Positions 17,356-27,535 of a stretch of DNA of 32,000 bases are shown one piece after another. The notes below the pieces were generated by a model that saw only the letters and a program-made list of their open reading frames with translations, did no database searches and was not told the DNA's origin. Numbering within the stretch: position 1 is the stretch's first letter; the number at the start of each line of letters is the position of its first letter. Source of the stretch: Archaeoglobus fulgidus DSM 4304 (GTDB taxonomy: Archaea > Halobacteriota > Archaeoglobi > Archaeoglobales > Archaeoglobaceae); assembly GCF_000008665.1 (NCBI RefSeq), contig NC_000917.1, positions 1,530,001 through 1,562,000 of the forward strand, written 5' to 3'. The position numbers and the translations under genes are program-made.

Positions 17356-18273
17356 ATGGAGGAGAAATTCAGAAACTGCATTCTTGGCCTGGCAGTTGGT
17401 GATGCCCTCGGAATGCCCGTTGAGGGGCTCTCAATCGAAAATATAAGGCAGCTGTACGGGGAGGTAAGGGACTTCCTTCCCTCACCCTATGGCGATTTGA
17501 ATGCGGGAGAATGGACGGATGATACCGAGCAAATGGTCGTTCTTGCCGAATCAATTCTCGAAACCGTTTACTTCGATCCGGAAAATTTTGCAGAGAGGCT
17601 GAAGAGGTGGTTTCTTGAAACCAACAGCAGGAGAATCGGGCCGAGCTCGACCAAAGCGATATCGAACCTGATGAGAGGTGTTCACTGGACGAGAGCGGGA
17701 GTTTTCAGCGACACGTGCGGAGCGGCGATGAGGGTTGCGCCGATAGGGCTGGTTTACCATTTCAGCCTGAACCTGGTTGAGAGGTATGCGGAGATTTCCG
17801 CAAGAGTTACACACACCGGAACTGCAGCGATAGGAGGTGCCGTTGCGGTTGCAGTGGCAATAGCTTGCAACGTTCTGGATTTCAGCGACGAGGAGATGCT
17901 CGAAGAGGTTTTGAGAAGGGTTGAGGCCTACGACAACCTTCTTGCGGAGAAAATAAGGTATGCGAACGAGATTTCCGATAGAGATGTGGAATACGCAGTC
18001 GAAAAGCTTGGAAACAGCATATCTTCCCTCGACGTCGTTCCCATGGCTTTTTACTCCTACTTTGCGGGAAAAGACTTTGAAGAGTCGCTGATAAAAGCCG
18101 TTAACGCCGGCGGAGATGCGGACTCAATTGCGGCGATATGCGGGGCGATTAAAGGGGCGAAGGGATTTGCAATTCCCGAGAGGTGGCTTGAGGGGCTGAA
18201 AGACAGAGAGTTCCTAGAGGAGCTGGCGACGAAGCTCTACGAATTGCACATGAGAATTGTTAAGCTCACTTAA
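17356..18273 (+). CDS. ADP-ribosylglycohydrolase (DraG/ARH) family protein
   Basis: FRNCILGLAVGDALGMPVEG and EWTDDTEQ near the N-terminus, plus AVNAGGDADSIAAICGAI near the C-terminus, are the family metal-binding motifs. I prefer the ATG at 17356 to the track TTG at 17338, but the start is uncertain. Confidence 0.85.
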   Translation: MEEKFRNCILGLAVGDALGMPVEGLSIENIRQLYGEVRDFLPSPYGDLNAGEWTDDTEQMVVLAESILETVYFDPENFAERLKRWFLETNSRRIGPSSTKAISNLMRGVHWTRAGVFSDTCGAAMRVAPIGLVYHFSLNLVERYAEISARVTHTGTAAIGGAVAVAVAIACNVLDFSDEEMLEEVLRRVEAYDNLLAEKIRYANEISDRDVEYAVEKLGNSISSLDVVPMAFYSYFAGKDFEESLIKAVNAGGDADSIAAICGAIKGAKGFAIPERWLEGLKDREFLEELATKLYELHMRIVKLT

Positions 18274-19211
18274 TCAATCCTGCATTCATCGGGACTTTTG
18301 TCCTCTCTCAGTCTCAGAAACACCGGTGCTCTGAGCTTCCCGTCTTCGGTGAACTCGAGGAACTCCACCTCGCAGACGTATCTCGGCTTAACCCAGTGAA
18401 CGTTTTTGGTCTCGATTTCGAAGTGCGGCTTTGCAACCTCTATTTCCCTCAACCTCTCCGAGAACCAGTTCAGAAACTCAGAATCAAAGCCGGTACCAAC
18501 GTTGCCGACATGTTTAAGCCTTCCATCCTCGTAAACAGCCAGAACGAGGGAGCCAAAGGTCTTTGCCCTCTCTCCCTCTCCCTCAATCCATCCCACTATA
18601 ACGCAGTCCAGTGTGTTCCTCTTCTTTATCTTCTTCCAGAGTCTGCTCCTTTTGCCTATCAAGTATCTTCCATCCTTTTTCTTTGCTACAATCCCTTCAA
18701 GCCCCATTTCCACCGCTTTTCTGTAGAACTCCTCCCCTTTACCTTCAATCCACTCCTCCACCACAACCCTTCCCCTGCTTTGGAGAACTTCGGAGAGTAT
18801 CTTCTTCCTCTCCATCAGCTCCAAATCCACAACCCAGCCGTCGCAGTAAAGAACGTCGAAAACTATGTAAACTGCGGGAATGGTTTTGCTGAGAATCTCA
18901 ATCTTGAATCTGCTGTCCACATGCTCTCTTTTCTGCAGAAGAGGGAAGGAGGGCTTACCGTCCTTTATCACAACAACCTCACCGTCGAGAATCGCGTTTC
19001 TCTCGACAGCATCCAGCAGTTTAATCTCGGGGTAGCGGTAGGTTATGTCCAGTAGCCTTCTGTTCTGCAGCCTGACCCTCTTTCCCTCCACATCAACGAA
19101 AGCGAGGCACCTCGTTCCATCCCACTTAACCTCGTAAATGTGGTCGTCGCTGCTGAAGGGCTTTGACCTGACAGCAAGCATCGGCTTGATTTTTTTATCG
19201 AACCAGCTCAT
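18270..19211 (-). CDS. ATP-dependent DNA ligase, small LigD-type ligase domain
   Basis: 313 aa. Motif I is YEVKWDGTR, with the adenylated Lys. Motif III is ILDGEVVV, motif IV is VYIVFDVLY and motif V is EGIVAKKKDGRY / LWKKIKK. An OB-fold tail follows. Its start overlaps the Ku stop in an ATGA junction. Confidence 0.9.
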   Translation of the reverse strand: MSWFDKKIKPMLAVRSKPFSSDDHIYEVKWDGTRCLAFVDVEGKRVRLQNRRLLDITYRYPEIKLLDAVERNAILDGEVVVIKDGKPSFPLLQKREHVDSRFKIEILSKTIPAVYIVFDVLYCDGWVVDLELMERKKILSEVLQSRGRVVVEEWIEGKGEEFYRKAVEMGLEGIVAKKKDGRYLIGKRSRLWKKIKKRNTLDCVIVGWIEGEGERAKTFGSLVLAVYEDGRLKHVGNVGTGFDSEFLNWFSERLREIEVAKPHFEIETKNVHWVKPRYVCEVEFLEFTEDGKLRAPVFLRLREDKSPDECRID

Positions 19212-19969
19212 TTGACTGCCTCAAGACTGGCTTTCAACGCATCAATCAGCGATTTAACCTCTTCAACTCCCTCGCTGACAACAATCTCTCTGCCGGAGAG
19301 CTTCGCCTCAATCAGCTGCATCAGCGCCTCCTTGTACTCGTCTCTGAACTCCTCCAGCTTCAGCGGTTTCTTCATGGCAAGGATGAGCTTTTTGGCGAGT
19401 TCAAGCTCCTCTTCGGTGATTTCCGCCACAGCGCCCCAGCCGGGAAGCTCCAGAGGGCTGCGGACCTCGTCGATGTAGTGCAGCTGAGCCAGAACTATCC
19501 CACCGTCGTAGGGTCTTAGAGCCACGAGGTTCTCCTTTCCGCGCATGGTCATCTTTCCTATCCCCATGCTGTTTGTCTCCTCCATAGCTTTCTTCAGCAG
19601 GTAGTAGGCCTTTTCTCCTCCCTTGTCTGGTGATATGTAGTAAAAGCTGCTGTAGTAAATCAGTCCAAGCTCTGCAGGGTCGAAAAACTGCCTTATCTCT
19701 ATGCTTTTCGTCGATTTTAGGGGAATCTTCTCAAAGTCTTCGTCGGTTAGAATCACATACTCATTTTTCGATATTTCGTATCCTTTGACGATTTCTCCGT
19801 CTGAAACCTCCTTTCCGCACTTCTCGCAGACTTTTCTGTATCTGATCCTGCCCCCATCAGCAGAATGAAGGAGGTGAAATTGAATCTCCTTCTGCGTTGT
19901 TGCTTTGTAAACCTTCACCGGTATGTTCACGAGGCCAAAGGATATGCTACCCTTCCATGTCGCCCTCAT
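19208..19969 (-). CDS. ku: Ku-type DNA end-binding protein (prokaryotic Ku homologue)
   Basis: MRATWKGSISFGLVNIPVKVYKAT is the canonical prokaryotic Ku N-terminus. I therefore place the start at the ATG at 19969. The 33-codon track extension up to 20068 runs into the AT-rich divergent promoter. Confidence 0.9.
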   Translation of the reverse strand: MRATWKGSISFGLVNIPVKVYKATTQKEIQFHLLHSADGGRIRYRKVCEKCGKEVSDGEIVKGYEISKNEYVILTDEDFEKIPLKSTKSIEIRQFFDPAELGLIYYSSFYYISPDKGGEKAYYLLKKAMEETNSMGIGKMTMRGKENLVALRPYDGGIVLAQLHYIDEVRSPLELPGWGAVAEITEEELELAKKLILAMKKPLKLEEFRDEYKEALMQLIEAKLSGREIVVSEGVEEVKSLIDALKASLEAVK

Positions 19970-20097
19970 GCTCAATCTTAAGCGCGCTCGGTAAAAAACA
20001 CTTTTCTCCATTAACATGATAAATTTGAATACAAATATGAGTATCAAATATGTATCGTGTAAAAACATTTAAGTACTATAGTACGTATAAGATTTGT

Positions 20098-21497: not shown

Positions 21498-22568
21498 ATG
21501 AAGGTAGTTCTGCTGAGTTCGTACTTTCCACCCCACATCGGCGGGGTTGAGGTTCATGTTGAAAGAATTGCCCACCACCTCCACAGAAGGGGTTTCGAGG
21601 TTGTTGTTGTCACCTCCACAGCTTCTGGGAGAGAAAAGTTTCCGTTCAGAGTTGAGTACGTTCCGAGCATCCCGATTCCCTATTCTCCCATCACACCATT
21701 CCTCGGGAGGTTCTTGGAGAAAATAGATGGCGATATTTTTCACTCCCACACACCTCCCCCCTTCTTTTCCTGCTCACTCAGAAAATCGCCGCACGTCATA
21801 ACCTACCACTGCGATATAGAGATTCCCGAGAAGTACGGGAGATTTCCGATTCCGAGAGCTTTATCGAAGCTAATAATCAGAAGAACCGACGATATGCTTT
21901 CCGAAGCCCTTGACCGGGCTGATGCGATTGTTGCGACGACAAAAAGCTACGCGGAGACTTCGAGGCTCTTGGCAGGCAGGGACTACCACGTCATCCCCAA
22001 CGGCATAGAGCTAAGCGAGTTCGAAGGGGTTGAGGCGGAAAAGGAGCCCACGGTCCTCTTCCTCGGCAGGCTTGCGGCAACAAAGGGGGTTGACGTTTTG
22101 CTTAAAGCAATGAAGCACGTTGATGTTGAAGCGAGATGCGTGATTATAGGTGATGGAGAGGAGAGGAGCTCGCTTGAGAGGCTGGCAAGAGAGCTTGAGG
22201 TGAATGCAGAGTTTACAGGCTTCCTTCCGAGAAAAAAGGTTATAGAGTACCTTTCAAGAGCTTCTCTTCTCGTTCTGCCCTCATTATCCAGGCTGGAGGC
22301 GTTCGGAATAGTCCTTCTTGAGGCGATGGCATGCGGAACTCCAGTTGCTGCCTCTGACCTTCCGGGTGTTAGGGATGTTGCATCTGAGGCGGGCTTCGTT
22401 TTTCCTCCGGGAGATTACATGAGGCTGAGCGAAATAATAAACGAAGTTCTGAGCGACGAGAGGAAGGTGAAAGCGATTGGAGAAAGCGGAAGGAGAATTG
22501 TAAGGGAGAAGTACAGCTGGGATGTGGTTGTCAAGTCCCTCATAAGGTTGTACGAGTCTCTCATTTGA
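21498..22568 (+). CDS. GT-B fold glycosyltransferase (family 4-like)
   Basis: 356 aa. The N-terminus is MKVVLLSSYFPPHIGGVEVHV. The C-terminal donor-binding motif is LEAFGIVLLEAMACGTPVAASD. Confidence 0.85.
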   Translation: MKVVLLSSYFPPHIGGVEVHVERIAHHLHRRGFEVVVVTSTASGREKFPFRVEYVPSIPIPYSPITPFLGRFLEKIDGDIFHSHTPPPFFSCSLRKSPHVITYHCDIEIPEKYGRFPIPRALSKLIIRRTDDMLSEALDRADAIVATTKSYAETSRLLAGRDYHVIPNGIELSEFEGVEAEKEPTVLFLGRLAATKGVDVLLKAMKHVDVEARCVIIGDGEERSSLERLARELEVNAEFTGFLPRKKVIEYLSRASLLVLPSLSRLEAFGIVLLEAMACGTPVAASDLPGVRDVASEAGFVFPPGDYMRLSEIINEVLSDERKVKAIGESGRRIVREKYSWDVVVKSLIRLYESLI

Positions 22569-22610
22569 CTTCAAGAAAATATTTTAAACGCCTTTTCGAT
22601 TTTAAATCAA

Positions 22611-23543
22611 ATGAGGTTGCTGACAATAGGCTCGGGGCTGCGCGGGGCCAAGGTGGCAGAAATTCTGCATAAAAAAGGCGTGAAGGTCAACAGAGTTCCC
22701 CTGTTTAAGTGCTTTGCAGTTCTGAACAATGAGGAGCACTTGAGAAGCATTTCGATAGGTGACGACAGGAAGTACTACGTTCACGGGCTGAAAGGAGACG
22801 TGAGCGGGTTTGTGAATCAAATCACATCTCTTTATGAAATATTTGAGGGCAGCCTTGTTTTAACCTCGCTGGAGGATGATTTTGGCTACATAACATCTCT
22901 CGAGCTCTGCCAGAGGCTCAGAAAAGTTACGGAGGATGCTGTAATCTCCCTCGCAATAGTCCCCCAACTTGACACCTCGAGCATTGGGGAGATAAAGAAG
23001 CGAATTCGAAGTCTCAGAGACGTTTCGGACATTCTGATTCTCTTTGAGGGGGAGGTTGGAGTTGAGAGAAAAATCCTTGAGGTGATGAACCTCGTTGCCC
23101 TTGCCGGCGAGATTGATTTGAAGAAGAGGGTGGCTGGGGAGGTAGTTGTTGACACGTCCGATGTCTTCAACGCTTTGAAATCCGACGGATTCGCCATAGC
23201 GGGCTTGGCTGAGAGAAAGATACCCTTTAACTTTAAGAACCTGATTTTCAGAAGGAACAGCGAGCTCAAGGCGGTGAGAACTAGAAGAATGATAGAGCTG
23301 ACGGAGGAAGCGCTGCAGAACGTGAGCATCAACGGAGATGTTGAGAACGCCAAATCAGCATTGCTCCTCTTCGCCGGTAAGCCTGATGAGCTGACAATGG
23401 AGGGGCTTTTCTCCTCAATAGCGATGATAGAGAACATCAACAGGGATATCGTTGTGAGGTACGGGGACTATCCAATTCCCGGTTCGAGGAAAGTTTCCGC
23501 CGTTTTAATATTCTCAGGAATCAGGAAATTCCGCTTTGCCTGA
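22611..23543 (+). CDS. Divergent FtsZ/tubulin-superfamily-like protein with a degenerate nucleotide-binding signature
   Basis: 310 aa, and collinear by eye with FtsZ. LLTIGSGLRGAKVAEIL corresponds to the G-box I.VIGvGGgGsNav. LVLTSLEDDFGYITSLELC sits where GLGGGTGTG (T4) should be. VVVDTSDVFNAL corresponds to T7 (N.DFADv). GFAIAGLAE corresponds to G.AlMGiGe. AKSALLLFAGKPDELTMEGL...VVRYGDYPIPGSRKVSAVLIFSGI corresponds to the FtsZ C-terminal domain (gA.gvLinI.gg.dl.l.E......i..Ga..d..l.d.v.VtviaTGi). Confidence 0.55.
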   Translation: MRLLTIGSGLRGAKVAEILHKKGVKVNRVPLFKCFAVLNNEEHLRSISIGDDRKYYVHGLKGDVSGFVNQITSLYEIFEGSLVLTSLEDDFGYITSLELCQRLRKVTEDAVISLAIVPQLDTSSIGEIKKRIRSLRDVSDILILFEGEVGVERKILEVMNLVALAGEIDLKKRVAGEVVVDTSDVFNALKSDGFAIAGLAERKIPFNFKNLIFRRNSELKAVRTRRMIELTEEALQNVSINGDVENAKSALLLFAGKPDELTMEGLFSSIAMIENINRDIVVRYGDYPIPGSRKVSAVLIFSGIRKFRFA

Positions 23544-24318
23544 AAAGGGAGAACAGCTTGAAAATCGTACCGTGGTAAATTATTCTGTCCTCGATTCTTG
23601 ACTGGAGTGTTTTAAAGGCGTAATCGTCGATTTCGAATTCCACGTCGTCGTATTTGACATCCTTCAGGATTAGACCGTAAGGTGGAGCGGGCTCGACCCT
23701 CTCCTTGTGCTTTTCCGGGTTCAGGAGGTCCCTGAACCACTCAATGCTTCTGTGCTGCTTTCCGATCTCCATTATTGCCGTCACTATGCAGCGAACCATG
23801 TTCCAGGTAAAGGCGTTCCCCTCAATCTCGAAGATTATGAACTCCCTGTCCGCTCTAATGTCGGCGCTAATAATTTCCCTAACGCAGCTCTCTCCCTCTC
23901 CGAATTTCTTGGTGAAGTTTGAGAAGTCGTGGACGCCGATCAGCTCTTTAACAGCCTTTCTCATCGCAGAAATGTCGTAGTCCGAGCCGTACATAACGTA
24001 TGTGTAAACTCTGCTCTTCGCCCTTCTCGGGTCGAAGTCCTCGGAAACCTTCGCCCACGCCCATGCTGTTATGTCTTCGGGAAGCTCAGCGTTCAGCATT
24101 CTCGGAAAGATTTTGTCCTCGGAGTAGAAGGAAATGACCTGGCCGTAGGCATGAACTCCGGCATCAGTTCTCCCGGCACTCCTCAGCCTCGGATTCTCAA
24201 CTCCGAGCCTTCTTAGGGCGTTGATTACCTCTCCCTCAACCGTCCTTTGGTCGGGCTGAAACTGACTTCCGTGAAAGTTGTCACCGAAGTACGCTATCTT
24301 GAACGCGAACTTCATCAC
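23521..24318 (-). CDS. truA: tRNA pseudouridine synthase A (TruA/Pus3-like)
   Basis: 265 aa. The N-terminus is KIAYFGDNFHGSQ. The catalytic Asp motif is AGRTDAGVHAYGQV. Confidence 0.9.
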   Translation of the reverse strand: MMKFAFKIAYFGDNFHGSQFQPDQRTVEGEVINALRRLGVENPRLRSAGRTDAGVHAYGQVISFYSEDKIFPRMLNAELPEDITAWAWAKVSEDFDPRRAKSRVYTYVMYGSDYDISAMRKAVKELIGVHDFSNFTKKFGEGESCVREIISADIRADREFIIFEIEGNAFTWNMVRCIVTAIMEIGKQHRSIEWFRDLLNPEKHKERVEPAPPYGLILKDVKYDDVEFEIDDYAFKTLQSRIEDRIIYHGTIFKLFSLFRQSGIS

Positions 24319-24626
24319 AGCTCTCTCCCGACGAGAGACGAAACGAACTCGTTAAGTGCGCTCATTCTCCTCTGCAGTATCTCCTTAACCTGCTTCTGCC
24401 CCTGATAAAGACCAACTGCCGTGCCGACGATGAATAGAAACTCAAGCTCGTCGAGCTGGTACTTCTCCCTCAATTCAATCAAATCTCTAACCTTGCTCTC
24501 TGGCAGGCCGTCAACGGTAAGCTCCTCCTCTTCAACCCTCTCGAGGAACTTTTCGTCCGCACCCCACCTTGTTTTCAGCTCCTCAAAGGCGTCCCAGAGT
24601 ATCGACTTTCTCGTCTGAATATCCAT
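24315..24626 (-). CDS. Hypothetical protein (103 aa)
   Basis: The ORF lies between gap and truA on the same strand. Its stop overlaps the truA start by 4 nt. No motif was recognised. Confidence 0.45.
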   Translation of the reverse strand: MDIQTRKSILWDAFEELKTRWGADEKFLERVEEEELTVDGLPESKVRDLIELREKYQLDELEFLFIVGTAVGLYQGQKQVKEILQRRMSALNEFVSSLVGREL

Positions 24627-24647: not shown

Positions 24648-25670
24648 TTAAAAAACTTTCCCAATTCCAAGGCTCTCGTTCGTCTTCCTTATGCTCTCCT
24701 CCTTCTCCGCAAGCTCGAACATGGCCCTTATGGCGTCAATGTTCTCCGGAACAACAATAGCCTCCTGATGCACCGCCTGCGTTACGAAGAGGTCGTTTCC
24801 ATCAACGCCGATCGATTCCCTCCAAACGATGTTCTCGTAGAGGTCGTACCTGAGCCTGAGCTCTCTCGCGAACTCGATTACCTTTGCCGTTGAGGTGAAG
24901 CCATCCTCTGCGGAAATAAGCATGATTCTCGGCTCCTCGCTGAGAGCGCTCACGACGTCTTCTGCTTTGACCGCTTCTCTCATCTCAACGCAGAGGGAGT
25001 GGACGTGCATAAGCGTTGTGGGGAGCTTGAATGCTGTTGTTACAATATCAACATCGGGCAAAACAGTCTTGACGTCCGGCCCGTGGTGGGATGGAATCGC
25101 AACCGGATCAGGCATGATTCCGTTGACGAGCCCCTTCTTGTCTTCCTTCGGGTCGACAACCCTTCTCAGCATCGTCGCCCTAATCCTGCCGATGCTGAAG
25201 TTCGTTTTGAGCATGTAAATGAGCCTCGTCAAACCGGTGGTGTTACAGCTCACAACCCTTACGTAGCTTTTCCCAACAGCCTCATCATAGTTGGCCAGCG
25301 CGTTGAAGGAGACCTCGGCAACGTCCTTCTTCTCCCCGCCCTGGAATATCGCCTTTATGCCCGCTTTCTCGTAATACTTCGCCTTGTTTTCCGCCCCAAC
25401 CTTGTTCGGGCTGCAGTCGACAACGATGTCGGCTTTTGGCAGCAAATCCTCTATTGTTCCCTGAATCTCGATCCCCGCCCTCTCGAAAAGCTCCACGTTC
25501 TCGGGCTTGGCCACGTAGAGAGGATACCTTTTGGCGCCGAGTTTCGCCTCAAAGTCTGGGCGGGTTTTGGTAACTCCGACAACCTCCATATCGTCCTGAA
25601 GGCTGACTGCATCAGCCACTCTCTTTCCGATGGTTCCGTAACCGTTTATCGCCACCTTAACCTTCATCAT
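24648..25670 (-). CDS. gap: Glyceraldehyde-3-phosphate dehydrogenase, archaeal type II
   Basis: 340 aa. The Rossmann N-terminus is KVAINGYGTIGKRVADAV. The active-site Cys is in VVSCNTTGLTR. The overall length is typical of archaeal GAPDH. Confidence 0.95.
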   Translation of the reverse strand: MMKVKVAINGYGTIGKRVADAVSLQDDMEVVGVTKTRPDFEAKLGAKRYPLYVAKPENVELFERAGIEIQGTIEDLLPKADIVVDCSPNKVGAENKAKYYEKAGIKAIFQGGEKKDVAEVSFNALANYDEAVGKSYVRVVSCNTTGLTRLIYMLKTNFSIGRIRATMLRRVVDPKEDKKGLVNGIMPDPVAIPSHHGPDVKTVLPDVDIVTTAFKLPTTLMHVHSLCVEMREAVKAEDVVSALSEEPRIMLISAEDGFTSTAKVIEFARELRLRYDLYENIVWRESIGVDGNDLFVTQAVHQEAIVVPENIDAIRAMFELAEKEESIRKTNESLGIGKVF

Positions 25671-25849
25671 TCTCCCTCCAGTATTATTTTGTGCCCAACC
25701 AAATCCATCTCAACAACTCTACCTCTTACCTCTCTGTAATCTCCCAGAATGTCCCACATTTTTACTTTTTCCCCTTCAACGACGATTCTCACCACATCCT
25801 CCATCAGCGGCTCCTCCCGGCCTGCCAAAAAGACCTTCGATTCACACAT
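25667..25849 (-). CDS. CooT-like small protein (putative nickel-binding / RNA-binding-fold family)
   Basis: MCESKVFLAGREEPLMEDVVRIVVEGEKVKMWDILGDYREVRGRVVEMDLVGHKIILE follows the CooT pattern (MCea.vyl....e..lmedV..i...g..v.l.difG....i.g.i..idl..hkIiLe). I place the start at the ATG at 25849 so that the N-terminus is Met-Cys. The track start at 25867 adds 6 residues. The stop overlaps the gap start by 4 nt. Confidence 0.6.
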   Translation of the reverse strand: MCESKVFLAGREEPLMEDVVRIVVEGEKVKMWDILGDYREVRGRVVEMDLVGHKIILEGE

Positions 25850-25921
25850 GATGAAGTGTTGGTGCAAGGTTTTATCTTATTTCCCCCAAACGTTAAAATT
25901 CCAGATAATATCACAGTTTTT

Positions 25922-27535
25922 GTGCTGAAGGTCGCCAAGTTCGAACTAAAAAAGTCGAGGAAGAGGTACGGGGCGAGGAGCTTGCTTCTAATTCTGCTTG
26001 CTGCAATGTTCTCAGCAGCAATGGGATACGCCTCTGTTTTAACCGGTATCGATTCCGATAAGGGGATTTACACAGCCAACGTGAGGGTGGACCTTGGGAC
26101 GTTCAAGCTCTCGGAAGATTCTGACGTCGTGCTGTATGATGGTAAGCTGTTTGTAGGGCAGAACGACAAGAGCCTTGCAGCCGCAGATGAGCTTTTGAAA
26201 TACCTCAGGGAGGAGCACAGAAAGAGGATAGAGGCTGAGTTTGGAGAGTTGGCACATCCCGTGAGGGTTAGCGTTGTTTACCTCAACCCGTCGAAGATAA
26301 CACCTCCCAGGACGAAGGCAGAAGGCGGTGGGGTGAAGAATGAAACGGAGAGCGGGCAGTTAAACGTAAACGGGTCGGAGGGGTCAAAGCAAACCAGCGA
26401 ATCCGCCTCAAAAACGCCTGCAGCAACGACTGTAACGGGTGGTGAGATGACGGCAAATGTCACACAGGTTGAAAAATCCTCTTACGTACCTCCTGAGGAC
26501 ATTAAAACACCGAGCCTCGTTGACAGAATGGTTCTGGCTTTCCTCTTCGTTATTCCATCTTACTTCGCCGTTCAGGTCTTCTCGTCCTCCCTGCTTGAGG
26601 ACAAGCTCCTCAGGAGGCTTGAGGTTCTGCTGTCCGCGATAAGCAGATCAGACCTGATTTTCGGGAAGATTCTGCCCTACCTTCTTTTCTCCCTTCTTTC
26701 TTCCCTCGCCGTATCGGTGTATCTGGGGAGCTATTTGGCATTTCTCTTCGCCATCCCCGTAATCCTCCTGCTTTTCTCCGCTCAAACGTTCGTGGTGATG
26801 ATTTCGAGAAGCTACAGAGAGGCAACCTTTCTCCTCCTCGTCGTTTCTCTCCTTATTACGATCTACGCATTCATCCCTGCGGTGTTCTCAACTGCAATAC
26901 CCCTGTCAAAAATCTCACCCATCACGCTCCTGATAGCGAGCGTTCAGGGAGAGGAGATAAACCTGACAGACCTCTCCCTTTCATTCGCCCACTACCTGAT
27001 TATGGCCTCGATGCTGCTTTACTTCAGCATGAAGGCCCTCAATCCGGACATTGCCCATGGAAAGGAGATTTTCCAGAAACTCGTTGAGATTTCGAGGCTG
27101 AGCGTAACCAGCGATTCTGCAGCATTCATCTTGGCCTTTCTGTCTATATCCTTCGCCTTCATGGCCGAACTCTTTGCAGTTTTCATGATTTTTGTCCTTC
27201 CGCGGCAGCTCATGATTCCAGCCCTGCTCGTCTGCGTTGCGGCGGTTGAGGAGCTCATAAAGGGACTCATCATTTTCTCCTCGCCCACCGCTCGCAGAGC
27301 CTTTTTCACAGCTCTGGGCTTCTTTGCGGGTGAGAAGTTTCTAATCCTCTTCAACGTCCTTCAGGAGTACAGCATAGCCTTTCTCGGGCAGTTCCTCGTT
27401 CTTCCCTTAATTCTCCACATAGCAACCGCTCTGCTCATCGCCTTTACTGCTAAGTTCGGATACGGAAGGGCGCTGATGCTGGCGGCAATCCTGCATGCCA
27501 TCTACGACCATACGGTGGTGATGCTCCTTGTTTGA
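25922..27535 (+). CDS. Polytopic membrane protein: ABC-2-permease-like module fused to a C-terminal PrsW-like (EExxK / HxxxD) membrane protease-like module
   Basis: I place the start at the in-frame GTG at 25922 (MLKVAKFELKKSRKRYG followed by a TM helix). The upstream part of track ORF 25691 is antisense to cooT. An ABC-2 signature-like stretch (LLEDKLLRRLEVLLSAISRSDLIFGKILPY) lies at about 26590-26680. The C-terminal motifs are AAVEELIKGL (about 27245-27262), LGFFAGEKF (about 27317-27340), LILHIATAL and LHAIYDH (about 27491-27511). An S/T/G-rich linker lies at about 26290-26460. Confidence 0.55.
   Translation: MLKVAKFELKKSRKRYGARSLLLILLAAMFSAAMGYASVLTGIDSDKGIYTANVRVDLGTFKLSEDSDVVLYDGKLFVGQNDKSLAAADELLKYLREEHRKRIEAEFGELAHPVRVSVVYLNPSKITPPRTKAEGGGVKNETESGQLNVNGSEGSKQTSESASKTPAATTVTGGEMTANVTQVEKSSYVPPEDIKTPSLVDRMVLAFLFVIPSYFAVQVFSSSLLEDKLLRRLEVLLSAISRSDLIFGKILPYLLFSLLSSLAVSVYLGSYLAFLFAIPVILLLFSAQTFVVMISRSYREATFLLLVVSLLITIYAFIPAVFSTAIPLSKISPITLLIASVQGEEINLTDLSLSFAHYLIMASMLLYFSMKALNPDIAHGKEIFQKLVEISRLSVTSDSAAFILAFLSISFAFMAELFAVFMIFVLPRQLMIPALLVCVAAVEELIKGLIIFSSPTARRAFFTALGFFAGEKFLILFNVLQEYSIAFLGQFLVLPLILHIATALLIAFTAKFGYGRALMLAAILHAIYDHTVVMLLV

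What the first reader, a model, noticed from the sequence alone, without database searches (positions are those of the whole stretch)
22611..23543. FtsZ/tubulin-fold paralogue whose GTP-binding signature is replaced (EDDFGYI instead of GGGTGTG)
Read by eye, the 310-aa protein is collinear with FtsZ over its whole length. The matching elements are the G-box region IGSGLRG, a strand-loop-helix at the T4 position, a T7-like VVDTSD, GFAIAGLAE, and the C-terminal domain ending VSAVLIFSGI. The spacing is FtsZ-like: about 80 residues from the G-box to T4 and about 92 from T4 to T7. However, the tubulin signature loop that binds the GTP phosphates is LEDDFGYIT (22863-22895), which is acidic and glycine-poor. 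GTP binding as in FtsZ, CetZ or tubulin therefore looks unlikely. It could be a pseudo-enzyme cytoskeletal or regulatory protein. It lies 43 bp downstream of a GT4 glycosyltransferase, which hints at an envelope-related role. An AT-rich tract (atattttaaa, about 22579-22590) lies roughly 25 nt upstream of the ATG, which hints at its own promoter and a leaderless mRNA. Such a protein would typically be annotated as hypothetical.
Basis: partly seen in the sequence, partly recalled or inferred. Interest (0 to 1): 0.7.

Follow-up and report, generated by a model that had tools for sequence, protein, structure and literature searches.

The report
CetZ paralogue without a GTP pocket
This Archaeoglobus gene encodes a well-conserved relative of the archaeal tubulin-like protein CetZ that has lost every loop used to bind GTP but kept the loop that activates GTP hydrolysis in a neighbouring subunit, so it probably regulates or caps cytoskeletal filaments rather than building them itself.

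Summary
ORF 22611-23543 (+) encodes a 310-aa protein identical to A. fulgidus AAB89523.1. It has a confident tubulin/FtsZ fold (pLDDT 90.7), closest to H. volcanii CetZ1/CetZ2 (TM 0.79), not to FtsZ.

Profile alignment puts S86-L-E-D-D-F-G-Y93 opposite CetZ1 G106-L-G-G-G-T-G-S113. T3 is deleted and the T2, T5, T6 and H7 nucleotide contacts are gone. This holds across about 120 Archaeoglobi orthologues, under strong purifying selection (dN/dS 0.02-0.05).

The T7/H8 face, including the counterparts of catalytic CetZ1 D215/E218, is nearly invariant. Archaeoglobi also carry a canonical CetZ elsewhere in the genome.

Best reading (inferred): a pseudo-GTPase CetZ paralogue that docks through its T7 face onto GTP-bound CetZ filaments as a cap, GTPase activator or co-subunit.

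The gene is already listed as a 'non-haloarchaeal CetZ' (Brown & Duggin 2023). I found no mention of the dead nucleotide pocket in the papers I could search.

The glycosyltransferase neighbour is not conserved. A dedicated TATA box at about -27 (71 of 74 loci) supports a leaderless mRNA.

Verdict: new variant of a known kind, moderate interest.

The parts
22611..23543 (+). CDS of the 310-aa CetZ-like pseudo-GTPase (A. fulgidus AAB89523.1; by coordinate match the locus Brown & Duggin list as AF_RS08700 / O28545)
   Evidence: ORF. Exact identity to AAB89523.1/AIG98730.1. Same gene order in CP006577. Supplementary-table region NC_000917.1:1532611-1573543, i.e. gene 1552611-1553543, which is the window coordinates plus 1,530,000.
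22576..22588 (+). TATA-like box (aaaatattttaaa) centred about 28 nt upstream of the ATG; no Shine-Dalgarno motif between it and the start, implying a leaderless or near-leaderless mRNA
   Evidence: Sequence. An AT-run of >=6 overlapping -28..-24 is present in 71 of 74 distinct orthologous upstream regions, against 16-38 of 74 at eight control offsets. An SD-like motif occurs in 5 of 74. The transcription start site itself is inferred.
22629..22649 (+). T1 loop remnant G7-S-G9-L-R11-G12-A13 (canonical CetZ: G-x-G-Q-A-G-G)
   Evidence: G7, G9 and G12 are kept (119-120, 120 and 115 of 120). Canonical Q10/A11 is replaced; position 11 is R or K in 111 of 120.
22677..22715 (+). Family-specific H1-S2 segment G-V-K-V-N27-R-V-P-L31-F32-K-C-F, absent from canonical CetZ; candidate new interaction surface
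   Evidence: N27 and L31 are invariant, F32 118/120, V26 114/120, C34 110/120. Canonical CetZ is unrelated at these columns.
22866..22889 (+). Replaced T4 'tubulin signature' loop: S86-L-E88-D89-D90-F91-G92-Y93 opposite canonical G-L-G-G-G-T-G-S
   Evidence: Alignments. At least two acidic residues at 88-90 in 114 of 120 family members. 0-1 Gly in the 8-residue window in 116 of 120, against 4-5 Gly in 117 of 117 canonical CetZ.
23103..23177 (+). T7 loop and helix H8 (A165-G-E-I-D...G176-E-V-V-V-D181-T-S-D184-V-F-N187-A-L189), the most conserved stretch; D181/D184 align with CetZ1 D215/E218
   Evidence: G166, E167, D169, G176, E177, D181 and S183 are invariant; D184 and N187 are 119/120. E218 is the T7 catalytic residue of CetZ1 (bioRxiv 10.1101/2024.04.08.588506). 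Numbering comes from the alignment.
23457..23474 (+). R283-Y-G-D-Y-P288, the CetZ C-terminal-domain hallmark (canonical: R-G/A-G-D-Y-P)
   Evidence: R283, Y284 and G285 are invariant, D286 119/120, P288 118/120. It lies within the PF21011 match at residues 151-306.
23521..23543 (.). 23-nt convergent overlap of the 3' end with truA (23521-24318, minus strand)
   Evidence: PF01416. Convergent truA is found in 28 of 76 loci.

Best explanation
The gene encodes a CetZ-branch member of the tubulin/FtsZ superfamily that has become a pseudo-GTPase.

Shown: it keeps the complete two-domain fold. The whole nucleotide-binding ('top') face has been dismantled. T4 GGGTGSG became S-L-E-D-D-F-G. T3 is deleted. 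The T2 N-T, T5 E-G, T6 D-N and H7 Asn contacts are lost. The C-terminal helix and tail of canonical CetZ are absent. The opposite ('bottom') face is kept almost invariant. That face comprises the T7 loop with the two acidic residues that activate GTP hydrolysis in the neighbouring subunit, helix H8 and the RYGDYP strand. The gene is under strong purifying selection, has its own promoter, and co-exists in Archaeoglobi genomes with a canonical GTP-binding CetZ.

Inferred mechanism: the protein cannot bind GTP in the tubulin manner and so cannot present a nucleotide-loaded top face for a next subunit. It can still dock through its T7 face onto the GTP-bearing top face of a canonical CetZ subunit or filament end. 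There it would complete the active site, acting like a GTPase activator, and terminate or cap that end, or form a defined heterodimer. In this way it would tune the length, polarity or turnover of CetZ filaments.
For: Fold: AF2 pLDDT 90.7, pTM 0.90. Foldseek gives CetZ1 4b46 and CetZ2 4b45 at TM 0.79 and FtsZs at about 0.70.

Homology: PF21011 E=1.4e-21. The family profile matches CetZ1 at E=4.5e-29 over 1-308/1-351.

Loss of nucleotide loops: consensus comparisons, residue counts. PF00091 is found in 0/40 members above threshold, with one member at E=0.003.

Single-residue precedent: CetZ1 G108S, one T4 substitution, already disturbs assembly. Here G108, G109, G110 and T111 correspond to E, D, D and F.

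Retained T7: D181 120/120 and D184 119/120 align with CetZ1 D215/E218. E218 is catalytic.

Asymmetric constraint: in canonical CetZ the top loops are the best-conserved part (0.90 against 0.78 overall). In this family they are below average (0.53 against 0.65), while the bottom face is highest (0.85).

Not decaying: dN/dS is 0.02-0.05 in both halves.

Potential partner present: canonical CetZ with PF00091+PF21011 occurs in A. profundus (P0364, reported longest contig 1,560,622 bp, the same length as for degenerate P0074), G. acetivorans and G. ahangari. Brown & Duggin Table S1 lists one of each type in four Archaeoglobales genomes.
Against: No experiment or complex model supports a heterotypic contact. 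T7/H8 conservation could equally serve a homotypic interface or fold stability.

The replaced T4 loop is itself conserved as an acidic motif, together with a basic residue at T1 position 11. So the top face is not simply free-drifting and may have a new function.

No operon or neighbourhood link to the canonical cetZ or to ftsZ was found.

The family lacks the CetZ C-terminal tail that CetZ1 needs for function, so its localisation may differ.

Confidence: 0.42

Rival explanations
1. Nucleotide-independent homopolymer or static scaffold. The acidic T4 loop (E-D-D) occupies the place of the phosphates and, perhaps through a bridging Mg2+, contacts the acidic T7 loop of the next subunit. Filaments would then assemble without GTP turnover.
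For: Both the T4 replacement (acidic in 114/120) and T7 are conserved within the family. The full polymer-competent fold is kept. Selection is strong on both domains.
Against: The top loops other than T4 and T1 are poorly conserved (0.43-0.49), which is unexpected for a homotypic longitudinal interface. T3 and T5, which contribute to the interface in canonical polymers, are deleted or changed. I know of no nucleotide-free tubulin-superfamily polymer (own knowledge).
Confidence: 0.2
2. It still binds GTP, or another nucleotide or dinucleotide, in a non-canonical way through the surviving G-x-G-x-x-G T1 loop and R/K11, and works as an ordinary but divergent CetZ filament former.
For: G7/G9/G12 are retained and position 11 is basic in 111/120. 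There are weak sub-threshold hits of the N-terminal beta-alpha-beta unit to Rossmann families (3HCDH_N and Pyr_redox; BaiCD). The literature files it as a CetZ.
Against: Three acidic residues replace the phosphate-binding glycines. T3 (gamma-phosphate sensor), the T5 ribose contact and the T6/H7 guanine contacts are all missing. The Rossmann hits are far below threshold and span only about 40 residues. Relaxed conservation of the top loops argues against a maintained ligand pocket.
Confidence: 0.12
3. A repurposed, non-cytoskeletal adaptor or regulator, for example linked to cell-envelope glycosylation, that merely reuses the tubulin fold.
For: A glycosyltransferase sits immediately upstream on the same strand in 11 loci of the clade closest to A. 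fulgidus: GT4 in the window and L001-3, and a GT2 in 7 loci. The family-specific invariant H1-S2 segment (N27, L31, F32) suggests a new binding surface.
Against: The two glycosyltransferases are unrelated to each other and are absent from most of the 76 loci. The other synteny groups are housekeeping genes: M24 peptidases, NUDIX and M50; SpoIIM, translin and Alba; Iso_dh. The gene has its own promoter in 71/74 loci. Strict retention of the catalytic T7 residues is hard to explain without a tubulin-type partner.
Confidence: 0.13
4. A decaying paralogue on its way to becoming a pseudogene.
For: Loss of the family's hallmark motifs.
Against: dN/dS is 0.02-0.05 with dS at 1.4 or above. Intact full-length orthologues occur in 75 Archaeoglobi genomes. 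There are many invariant residues and a conserved promoter.
Confidence: 0.01

Closest known systems
CetZ (archaeal tubulin-like proteins; H. volcanii CetZ1/CetZ2, PDB 4b46/4b45)
   Same: Best sequence and structure match. It shares the CetZ_C domain (PF21011), the R-x-G-D-Y-P strand and the T7/H8 motif G-E...G-E-x-V-V-D-x-S-[ED]-x-x-N. The orthologue F2KRD9 and, by coordinates, this very locus are listed as 'CetZ - non-haloarchaea' by Brown & Duggin 2023.
   Different: No T4 signature, no T3 loop and no T2/T5/T6/H7 nucleotide contacts. No PF00091 match. No C-terminal helix or tail. About 70 residues shorter.
Methanomicrobiales long-tailed CetZ-like cluster (e.g. P0129 Methanomicrobium, P0137 Methanocorpusculum)
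   Same: Groups with this family in an NJ tree (98% bootstrap, with a long-branch caveat). It also lacks T3 and has a non-canonical T4. It corresponds to the other half of Brown & Duggin's 'non-Halobacteria-like' group.
   Different: It keeps G-L-G-G in T4 (with a one-residue deletion), the T5 E-G, the T6 F-D-N and T1 G-G-A-G. It also carries 150-600-residue C-terminal tails. This looks like an intermediate state of degeneration.
FtsZ (FtsZ1/FtsZ2 of archaea, bacterial FtsZ)
   Same: Same fold; TM about 0.70 over about 330 columns.
   Different: 12-16% identity. No FtsZ chain reaches E<=1 in sequence or profile search. FtsZ_C (PF12327) appears in 1/40 members at E=0.07.
ARC3 of plant chloroplasts (FtsZ-like domain protein that inhibits Z-ring assembly)
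   Same: Works-like analogy: a tubulin-superfamily domain without GTPase function that acts on filaments built by canonical paralogues. [quoted passage not shown]
   Different: ARC3 is a multidomain eukaryotic protein with MORN repeats and no CetZ_C domain. That its FtsZ-like domain lacks GTP-binding motifs is from my own knowledge and was not checked here. No homology beyond the superfamily is implied.
Thaumarchaeal FtsZ-like protein (N. maritimus Nmar_1262)
   Same: An archaeal tubulin-superfamily protein with degenerate conserved motifs, not forming polymers in a heterologous system (PMC3684127).
   Different: There the divergence is reported for both the GTP-binding and the T7 regions. Here T7 is strictly retained.

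Membership tests
Tubulin/FtsZ superfamily | Two-domain fold: Rossmann-like N-domain, core helix H7, T7 loop, C-domain | tested here: met
   AF2 model pLDDT 90.7 with S1-S6, H7 (151-164), H8 and S7-S10. Foldseek prob 1.00 to CetZ, FtsZ and TubZ structures, TM 0.64-0.79.
Tubulin/FtsZ superfamily | Tubulin signature motif GGGTG(S/T)G in loop T4 | tested here: not met
   S-L-E-D-D-F-G-Y sits at the aligned position. 0-1 Gly in 116/120 family members against 4-5 in 117/117 canonical CetZ.
Tubulin/FtsZ superfamily | GTP binding, GTP-dependent polymerisation and GTP hydrolysis | not testable with these tools
   Needs purified protein. Sequence predicts no canonical binding: T2-T6 are lost.
CetZ | CetZ-type C-terminal domain (Pfam PF21011) | tested here: met
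   E=1.4e-21, 77 bits against a cut-off of 21.6. 40/40 family members match.
CetZ | N-terminal Tubulin/FtsZ GTPase domain (Pfam PF00091) | tested here: not met
   No hit at E<=1 for this protein. 1/40 members at E=0.003. Canonical Archaeoglobi CetZ carry PF00091+PF21011.
CetZ | T7 catalytic acidic residues (CetZ1 D215/E218) | tested here: met
   D181 120/120 and D184 119/120, aligned to D215/E218.
CetZ | Closer to CetZ than to FtsZ or tubulin in sequence and phylogeny | tested here: met
   The PDB profile search finds only CetZ1 and CetZ2. The deep search returns only CetZ-like proteins. No outgroup-rooted tree was made.
CetZ | C-terminal helix and tail after the last strand (functionally required in CetZ1) | tested here: not met
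   The protein ends 6 residues after S10. Canonical and Methanomicrobiales forms continue with a P-R-[IV]-x-x-L helix and tail.
FtsZ | FtsZ_C domain (PF12327) and FtsZ-type T7 (N-x-D-F-A-D) | tested here: not met
   PF12327 appears in 1/40 members at E=0.07. No FtsZ chain reaches E<=1. The T7 is CetZ-type.
FtsZl1 / FtsZl2 (Makarova & Koonin 2010) | Retained GGGTG(S/T)G loop by which these families were recognised | tested here: not met
   The families were detected through the signature loop (PMC2875224), and the motif is absent here. No profile of these families was available to test directly.

The most novel reading that the evidence does not exclude
A natural 'half-subunit' of the tubulin superfamily, conserved across the class Archaeoglobi. 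It has lost its own nucleotide pocket but keeps the trans-acting T7 catalytic face, and works as a dedicated end-capper or built-in GTPase activator for canonical CetZ filaments. This would be a paralogue-encoded filament regulator. I found none described for archaeal tubulin-like proteins. Alternatively, the acidic T4 loop mimics the phosphates and supports the first nucleotide-independent tubulin-type polymer.
Probability: 0.3. Interest if true: 0.72.

Novelty: new variant of a known kind. Interest (0 to 1): 0.52.

Why it matters
GTP binding at the subunit interface is treated as the defining property of tubulin-superfamily proteins, CetZ included (introduction of PMC9856176). How CetZ filaments are regulated is unknown.

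This clade is conserved and strongly selected. It dropped the GTP pocket yet kept the trans-activating T7 face. It is therefore a ready-made natural separation-of-function allele, and it comes from a thermophile whose proteins are easy to purify.

If it caps or activates canonical CetZ, it would be the first dedicated CetZ regulator. It would also be a prokaryotic example of subfunctionalised tubulin paralogues, conceptually like the alpha/beta-tubulin division of labour.

It also warns that automated names such as 'cell division GTPase FtsZ' and the classification as an ordinary CetZ overstate what the sequence supports.

Tried and rejected
- Pseudogene or decay was rejected by dN/dS of 0.02-0.05 and 75 intact orthologues.
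- A misplaced GGGTG motif elsewhere in the protein was rejected by a regex scan of all family members and by two HMMER alignments.
- FtsZ membership was rejected.
- A functional link to the GT4 neighbour is not supported. It is conserved on the same strand only in L001-L003. Three unrelated synteny contexts exist and no partner gene is shared by all.
- Recent duplication of the co-resident canonical Archaeoglobi CetZ was rejected: the D+CA split has 0% bootstrap.
- No canonical CetZ was found in the window by tblastn.
- Literature searches for AF1729/O28545 returned only unrelated antibody catalogue hits.
- Vaughan et al. 2004 and Duggin et al. 2015 are not held in the library, so I could not check whether they mention this protein's missing motifs.
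- Model coordinates are not exposed, so pocket geometry, electrostatics and an R11-to-E88/D89 salt bridge could not be examined.
- A first Biopython bootstrap run timed out and was replaced by a numpy implementation.
Full report
**1. Observation**

The ORF listing returns an ATG-initiated ORF at 22611..23543 (+), 310 aa.
- IGSGLRG, residues 6-12
- VVDTSD, residues 179-184
- GFAIAGLAE, residues 193-201
- VSAVLIFSGI, residues 295-304

The upstream GT4 gene ends at 22568, leaving 42 nt. The AT-rich tract aaaatattttaaa lies at 22576-22588.

The protein is identical to AAB89523.1 (A. fulgidus DSM 4304) and AIG98730.1 (strain DSM 8774, CP006577), with the same gene order there.

**2. What it is**

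Pfam finds only the CetZ C-terminal domain (PF21011, E=1.4e-21, residues 151-306). It finds no Tubulin/FtsZ GTPase domain.

phmmer against PDB sequences finds only H. volcanii CetZ1 (4b46, E=5.7e-15) and CetZ2 (4b45). A 40-sequence family profile (A1) aligns end to end with CetZ1 (1-308 against 1-351, E=4.5e-29). No FtsZ or tubulin chain reaches E<=1.

An AlphaFold2 model built on that alignment is confident (pLDDT 90.7, pTM 0.90). It has the full complement of elements: S1-S6, H7 at 151-164, the T7 loop, H8 and S7-S10. The only softer regions are the T7 loop (block 171-180, pLDDT 66) and the M-loop region (201-220, about 75).

Foldseek ranks CetZ1 and CetZ2 first (TM 0.79). Dozens of FtsZ structures follow at about 0.70, then M. 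thermophila CetZ 3zid at 0.70.

So the fold claim is correct. The family assignment should be the CetZ branch rather than FtsZ.

**3. The nucleotide site**

Both HMMER alignments put S86-L-E-D-D-F-G-Y93 opposite CetZ1 G106-L-G-G-G-T-G-S113.

I aligned 120 family sequences with 117 canonical CetZ and made a four-group alignment.

| Element | Canonical CetZ | This family |
|---|---|---|
| T1 | G-x-G-Q-A-G-G-K | G7-x-G9-x-[R/K]11-G12-A (basic at 11 in 111/120) |
| T2 | A-x-N-T-A | not kept |
| T3 | V-K-G-H-G-V-G-x-D-N | deleted (about 20 residues) |
| T4 | G-L-G-G-G-T-G-S-G | S-L-[E/D]-[D/E]-[D/E]-[F/Y]-[G/A/S] |
| T5 | E-G | lost |
| T6 | D-N | lost |
| H7 Asn | in I-N-E-E | aligns with variable E152 |

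For T4, 114/120 family members have at least two acidic residues at 88-90. Gly count in the 8-residue window is 0-1 in 116/120, against 4-5 in 117/117 canonical CetZ.

Family-wide, PF00091 is seen in only 1 of 40 members, below threshold (E=0.003). PF21011 is seen in 40/40.

For scale, a single T4 substitution in CetZ1 (G108S) already alters assembly and function (bioRxiv 10.1101/2024.04.08.588506). Here the residues equivalent to G108, G109, G110 and T111 are E, D, D and F.

**4. What is kept**

The most conserved stretch of the family is T7/H8: G166-E167-x-D169 ... G176-E177-V-V-V-D181-T-S183-D184-V-F-N187. These residues are invariant or 119/120.

By the alignment, D181 and D184 correspond to CetZ1 D215 and E218. 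E218 is the T7 catalytic residue whose E218A mutant is GTPase-blocked and makes hyperstable polymers.

The CetZ hallmark strand R-x-G-D-Y-P is kept as R283-Y-G-D-Y-P.

Conservation is asymmetric (entropy-based score):

| Group | Top (nucleotide) loops | Bottom (T7/H8/S9) face | Whole protein |
|---|---|---|---|
| Canonical CetZ | 0.90 | 0.83 | 0.78 |
| This family | 0.53 | 0.85 | 0.65 |

New family-specific invariant positions appear in the H1-S2 segment (V26, N27, L31, F32, C34).

The C-terminal helix and tail that follow the last strand in canonical CetZ are absent. CetZ1 needs that tail for function.

**5. Selection and distribution**

dN/dS against close orthologues is 0.024-0.049, and is similar in the N- and C-terminal halves. 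dS is already 1.4-2.4. This is not a decaying gene.

A scan of one genome per GTDB species found 75 loci. All are Archaeoglobi, apart from one 2.9-kb contig binned as 'Arcobacter', which is probably mis-binned.

An exhaustive profile search of 1.84 billion representatives found only seven sequences scoring above the next group, four of them full length. One of these is from Geoglobus (P0121). Next came a Methanomicrobiales group and canonical CetZs.

The Methanomicrobiales group has long C-terminal tails, T4 = G-L-G-G-x-[M/L]-x-D with a one-residue deletion, no T3, but T5, T6 and T7 kept.

In an NJ tree (313 columns, 100 bootstraps):
- the degenerate family is monophyletic (100%)
- it groups with the Methanomicrobiales cluster (98%; both are long branches, so attraction is possible)
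- it never groups with the co-resident canonical Archaeoglobi CetZ (0%)

Canonical CetZ (PF00091+PF21011) exists in the same organisms. A. profundus P0364 and the degenerate P0074 are both reported with a longest contig of 1,560,622 bp. G. acetivorans and G. ahangari also have one. No canonical copy lies in this window.

**6. Literature**

Their supplementary table lists A. veneficus F2KRD9, which is my P0092, a 46%-identical orthologue. It also lists A. fulgidus AF_RS08700/O28545 with region NC_000917.1:1532611-1573543. That places the gene at 1552611-1553543, which equals the window coordinates plus 1,530,000. So this exact gene is already filed as a CetZ.

That paper describes a critical GTPase active site as a property of tubulin-superfamily proteins. 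Its main text says nothing about loss of the site in this clade.

[quoted passage not shown] 2004. I could not read that paper or Duggin et al. 2015.

The phenomenon in general is therefore known. I did not find the specific anatomy, with T1-T6 dismantled and T7 intact, described anywhere.

**7. Surroundings**

The GT4 glycosyltransferase (PF00534/PF13439) is upstream on the same strand only in the window and L001-L003, and on the opposite strand in L008 and L026. An unrelated GT2 (PF00535) occupies that position in 7 loci.

Convergent truA plus a conserved 103-aa ORF are found in 28 and 25 of 76 loci. Other clades have different neighbours:
- M24 peptidases, NUDIX, M50 protease
- SpoIIM, translin, Alba
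- Iso_dh

No partner gene is shared by all. The envelope hint is therefore weak.

The promoter hint is strong. An AT-run of at least 6 overlaps -28..-24 from the start codon in 71 of 74 distinct upstream regions, whatever the upstream gene. At eight control offsets the count is 16-38 of 74. SD-like motifs occur in only 5 of 74. This matches the usual archaeal TATA-to-start distance (own knowledge) and implies a leaderless or near-leaderless transcript. The start site itself is inferred.

**8. Mechanism**

Shown: CetZ-type fold, dismantled nucleotide face, intact trans-acting T7 face, purifying selection, own promoter, and a canonical CetZ in the same genomes.

Inferred: the protein cannot load GTP and so cannot offer a nucleotide-bearing top face. 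It can still insert its T7 loop into the GTP site of a canonical CetZ subunit. This would make it an end-cap, GTPase activator or obligate hetero-partner that tunes CetZ filament length or turnover (confidence about 0.4).

Rivals:
- a nucleotide-free homopolymer in which the acidic T4 loop mimics phosphate (0.2)
- non-canonical nucleotide binding through the surviving GxGxxG and R11 (0.12)
- a repurposed non-cytoskeletal adaptor (0.13)
- a pseudogene (refuted)

**9. Verdict**

The protein is a member of the CetZ lineage by descent but fails the GTP-site features that define functional tubulin-superfamily proteins. I rate it a new variant of a known kind, with moderate interest (0.52). The reason is that the gene is already catalogued as a CetZ and the mechanism is untested.

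Noticed in passing
proteins P0128-P0176 (e.g. P0129 Methanomicrobium sp., P0137 Methanocorpusculum sp.): A large Methanomicrobiales group of CetZ-like proteins (500-950 aa). T4 is partly degenerate (G-L-G-G-x-M/L-x-D with a one-residue deletion) and T3 is absent, but T5, T6 and T7 are intact. They carry very long low-complexity C-terminal tails. This may be an intermediate stage of the same degeneration.
   Followed up: partly
window 24315-24626 (-): A 103-aa ORF with no Pfam family (only a weak Prefoldin_3 hit, E=0.027). It is conserved directly downstream of truA in 25 Archaeoglobi loci. Function unknown.
   Followed up: no
upstream regions of the family genes, about -58..-54 from the start codon (window about 22553-22557; loci L001-L075): A second, weaker peak of AT-runs: 35-41% of loci, against about 10% at -50..-40. 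It is unexplained. It could be a terminator T-tract of the upstream gene or a second promoter element.
   Followed up: no
L015, L017, L018, L030 (around 60 nt upstream of the match): In these loci the gene directly abuts an isocitrate/isopropylmalate dehydrogenase gene. L015 and L017 have no AT-run in the 70 nt upstream and carry GGAG at -9; L018 and L030 have neither an AT-run at -28..-24 nor an SD-like motif. This looks like an operonic, leadered variant of an otherwise leaderless gene.
   Followed up: partly
L072 (DQSS01000174.1, 2.9 kb): A contig binned as an 'Arcobacter sp.' MAG encodes an Archaeoglobi-type copy of this protein (46% identity). It is probably mis-binned.
   Followed up: no
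window 18270-20068 (-): A Ku gene (PF02735 in the identical CP006577 locus) is followed by a 313-aa ORF that looks like an ATP-dependent DNA ligase. This would be an archaeal NHEJ pair. The ligase assignment was not tested here.
   Followed up: no
window 25667-27535: A CooT homologue (PF10133, 25667-25867, minus strand) lies upstream of gap. The 614-aa ORF listed at 25691-27535 (+) overlaps it. Gene callers start that ORF at 25922 (537 aa), and it has no Pfam match despite a long hydrophobic C-terminal half.
   Followed up: partly
window 21498-22568 (+): Besides generic GT4/GT1 families, the GT4 glycosyltransferase also matches PF20706 'GT4 in conflict systems' (E=5e-13). This is weaker than the generic matches and was not pursued.
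   Followed up: no
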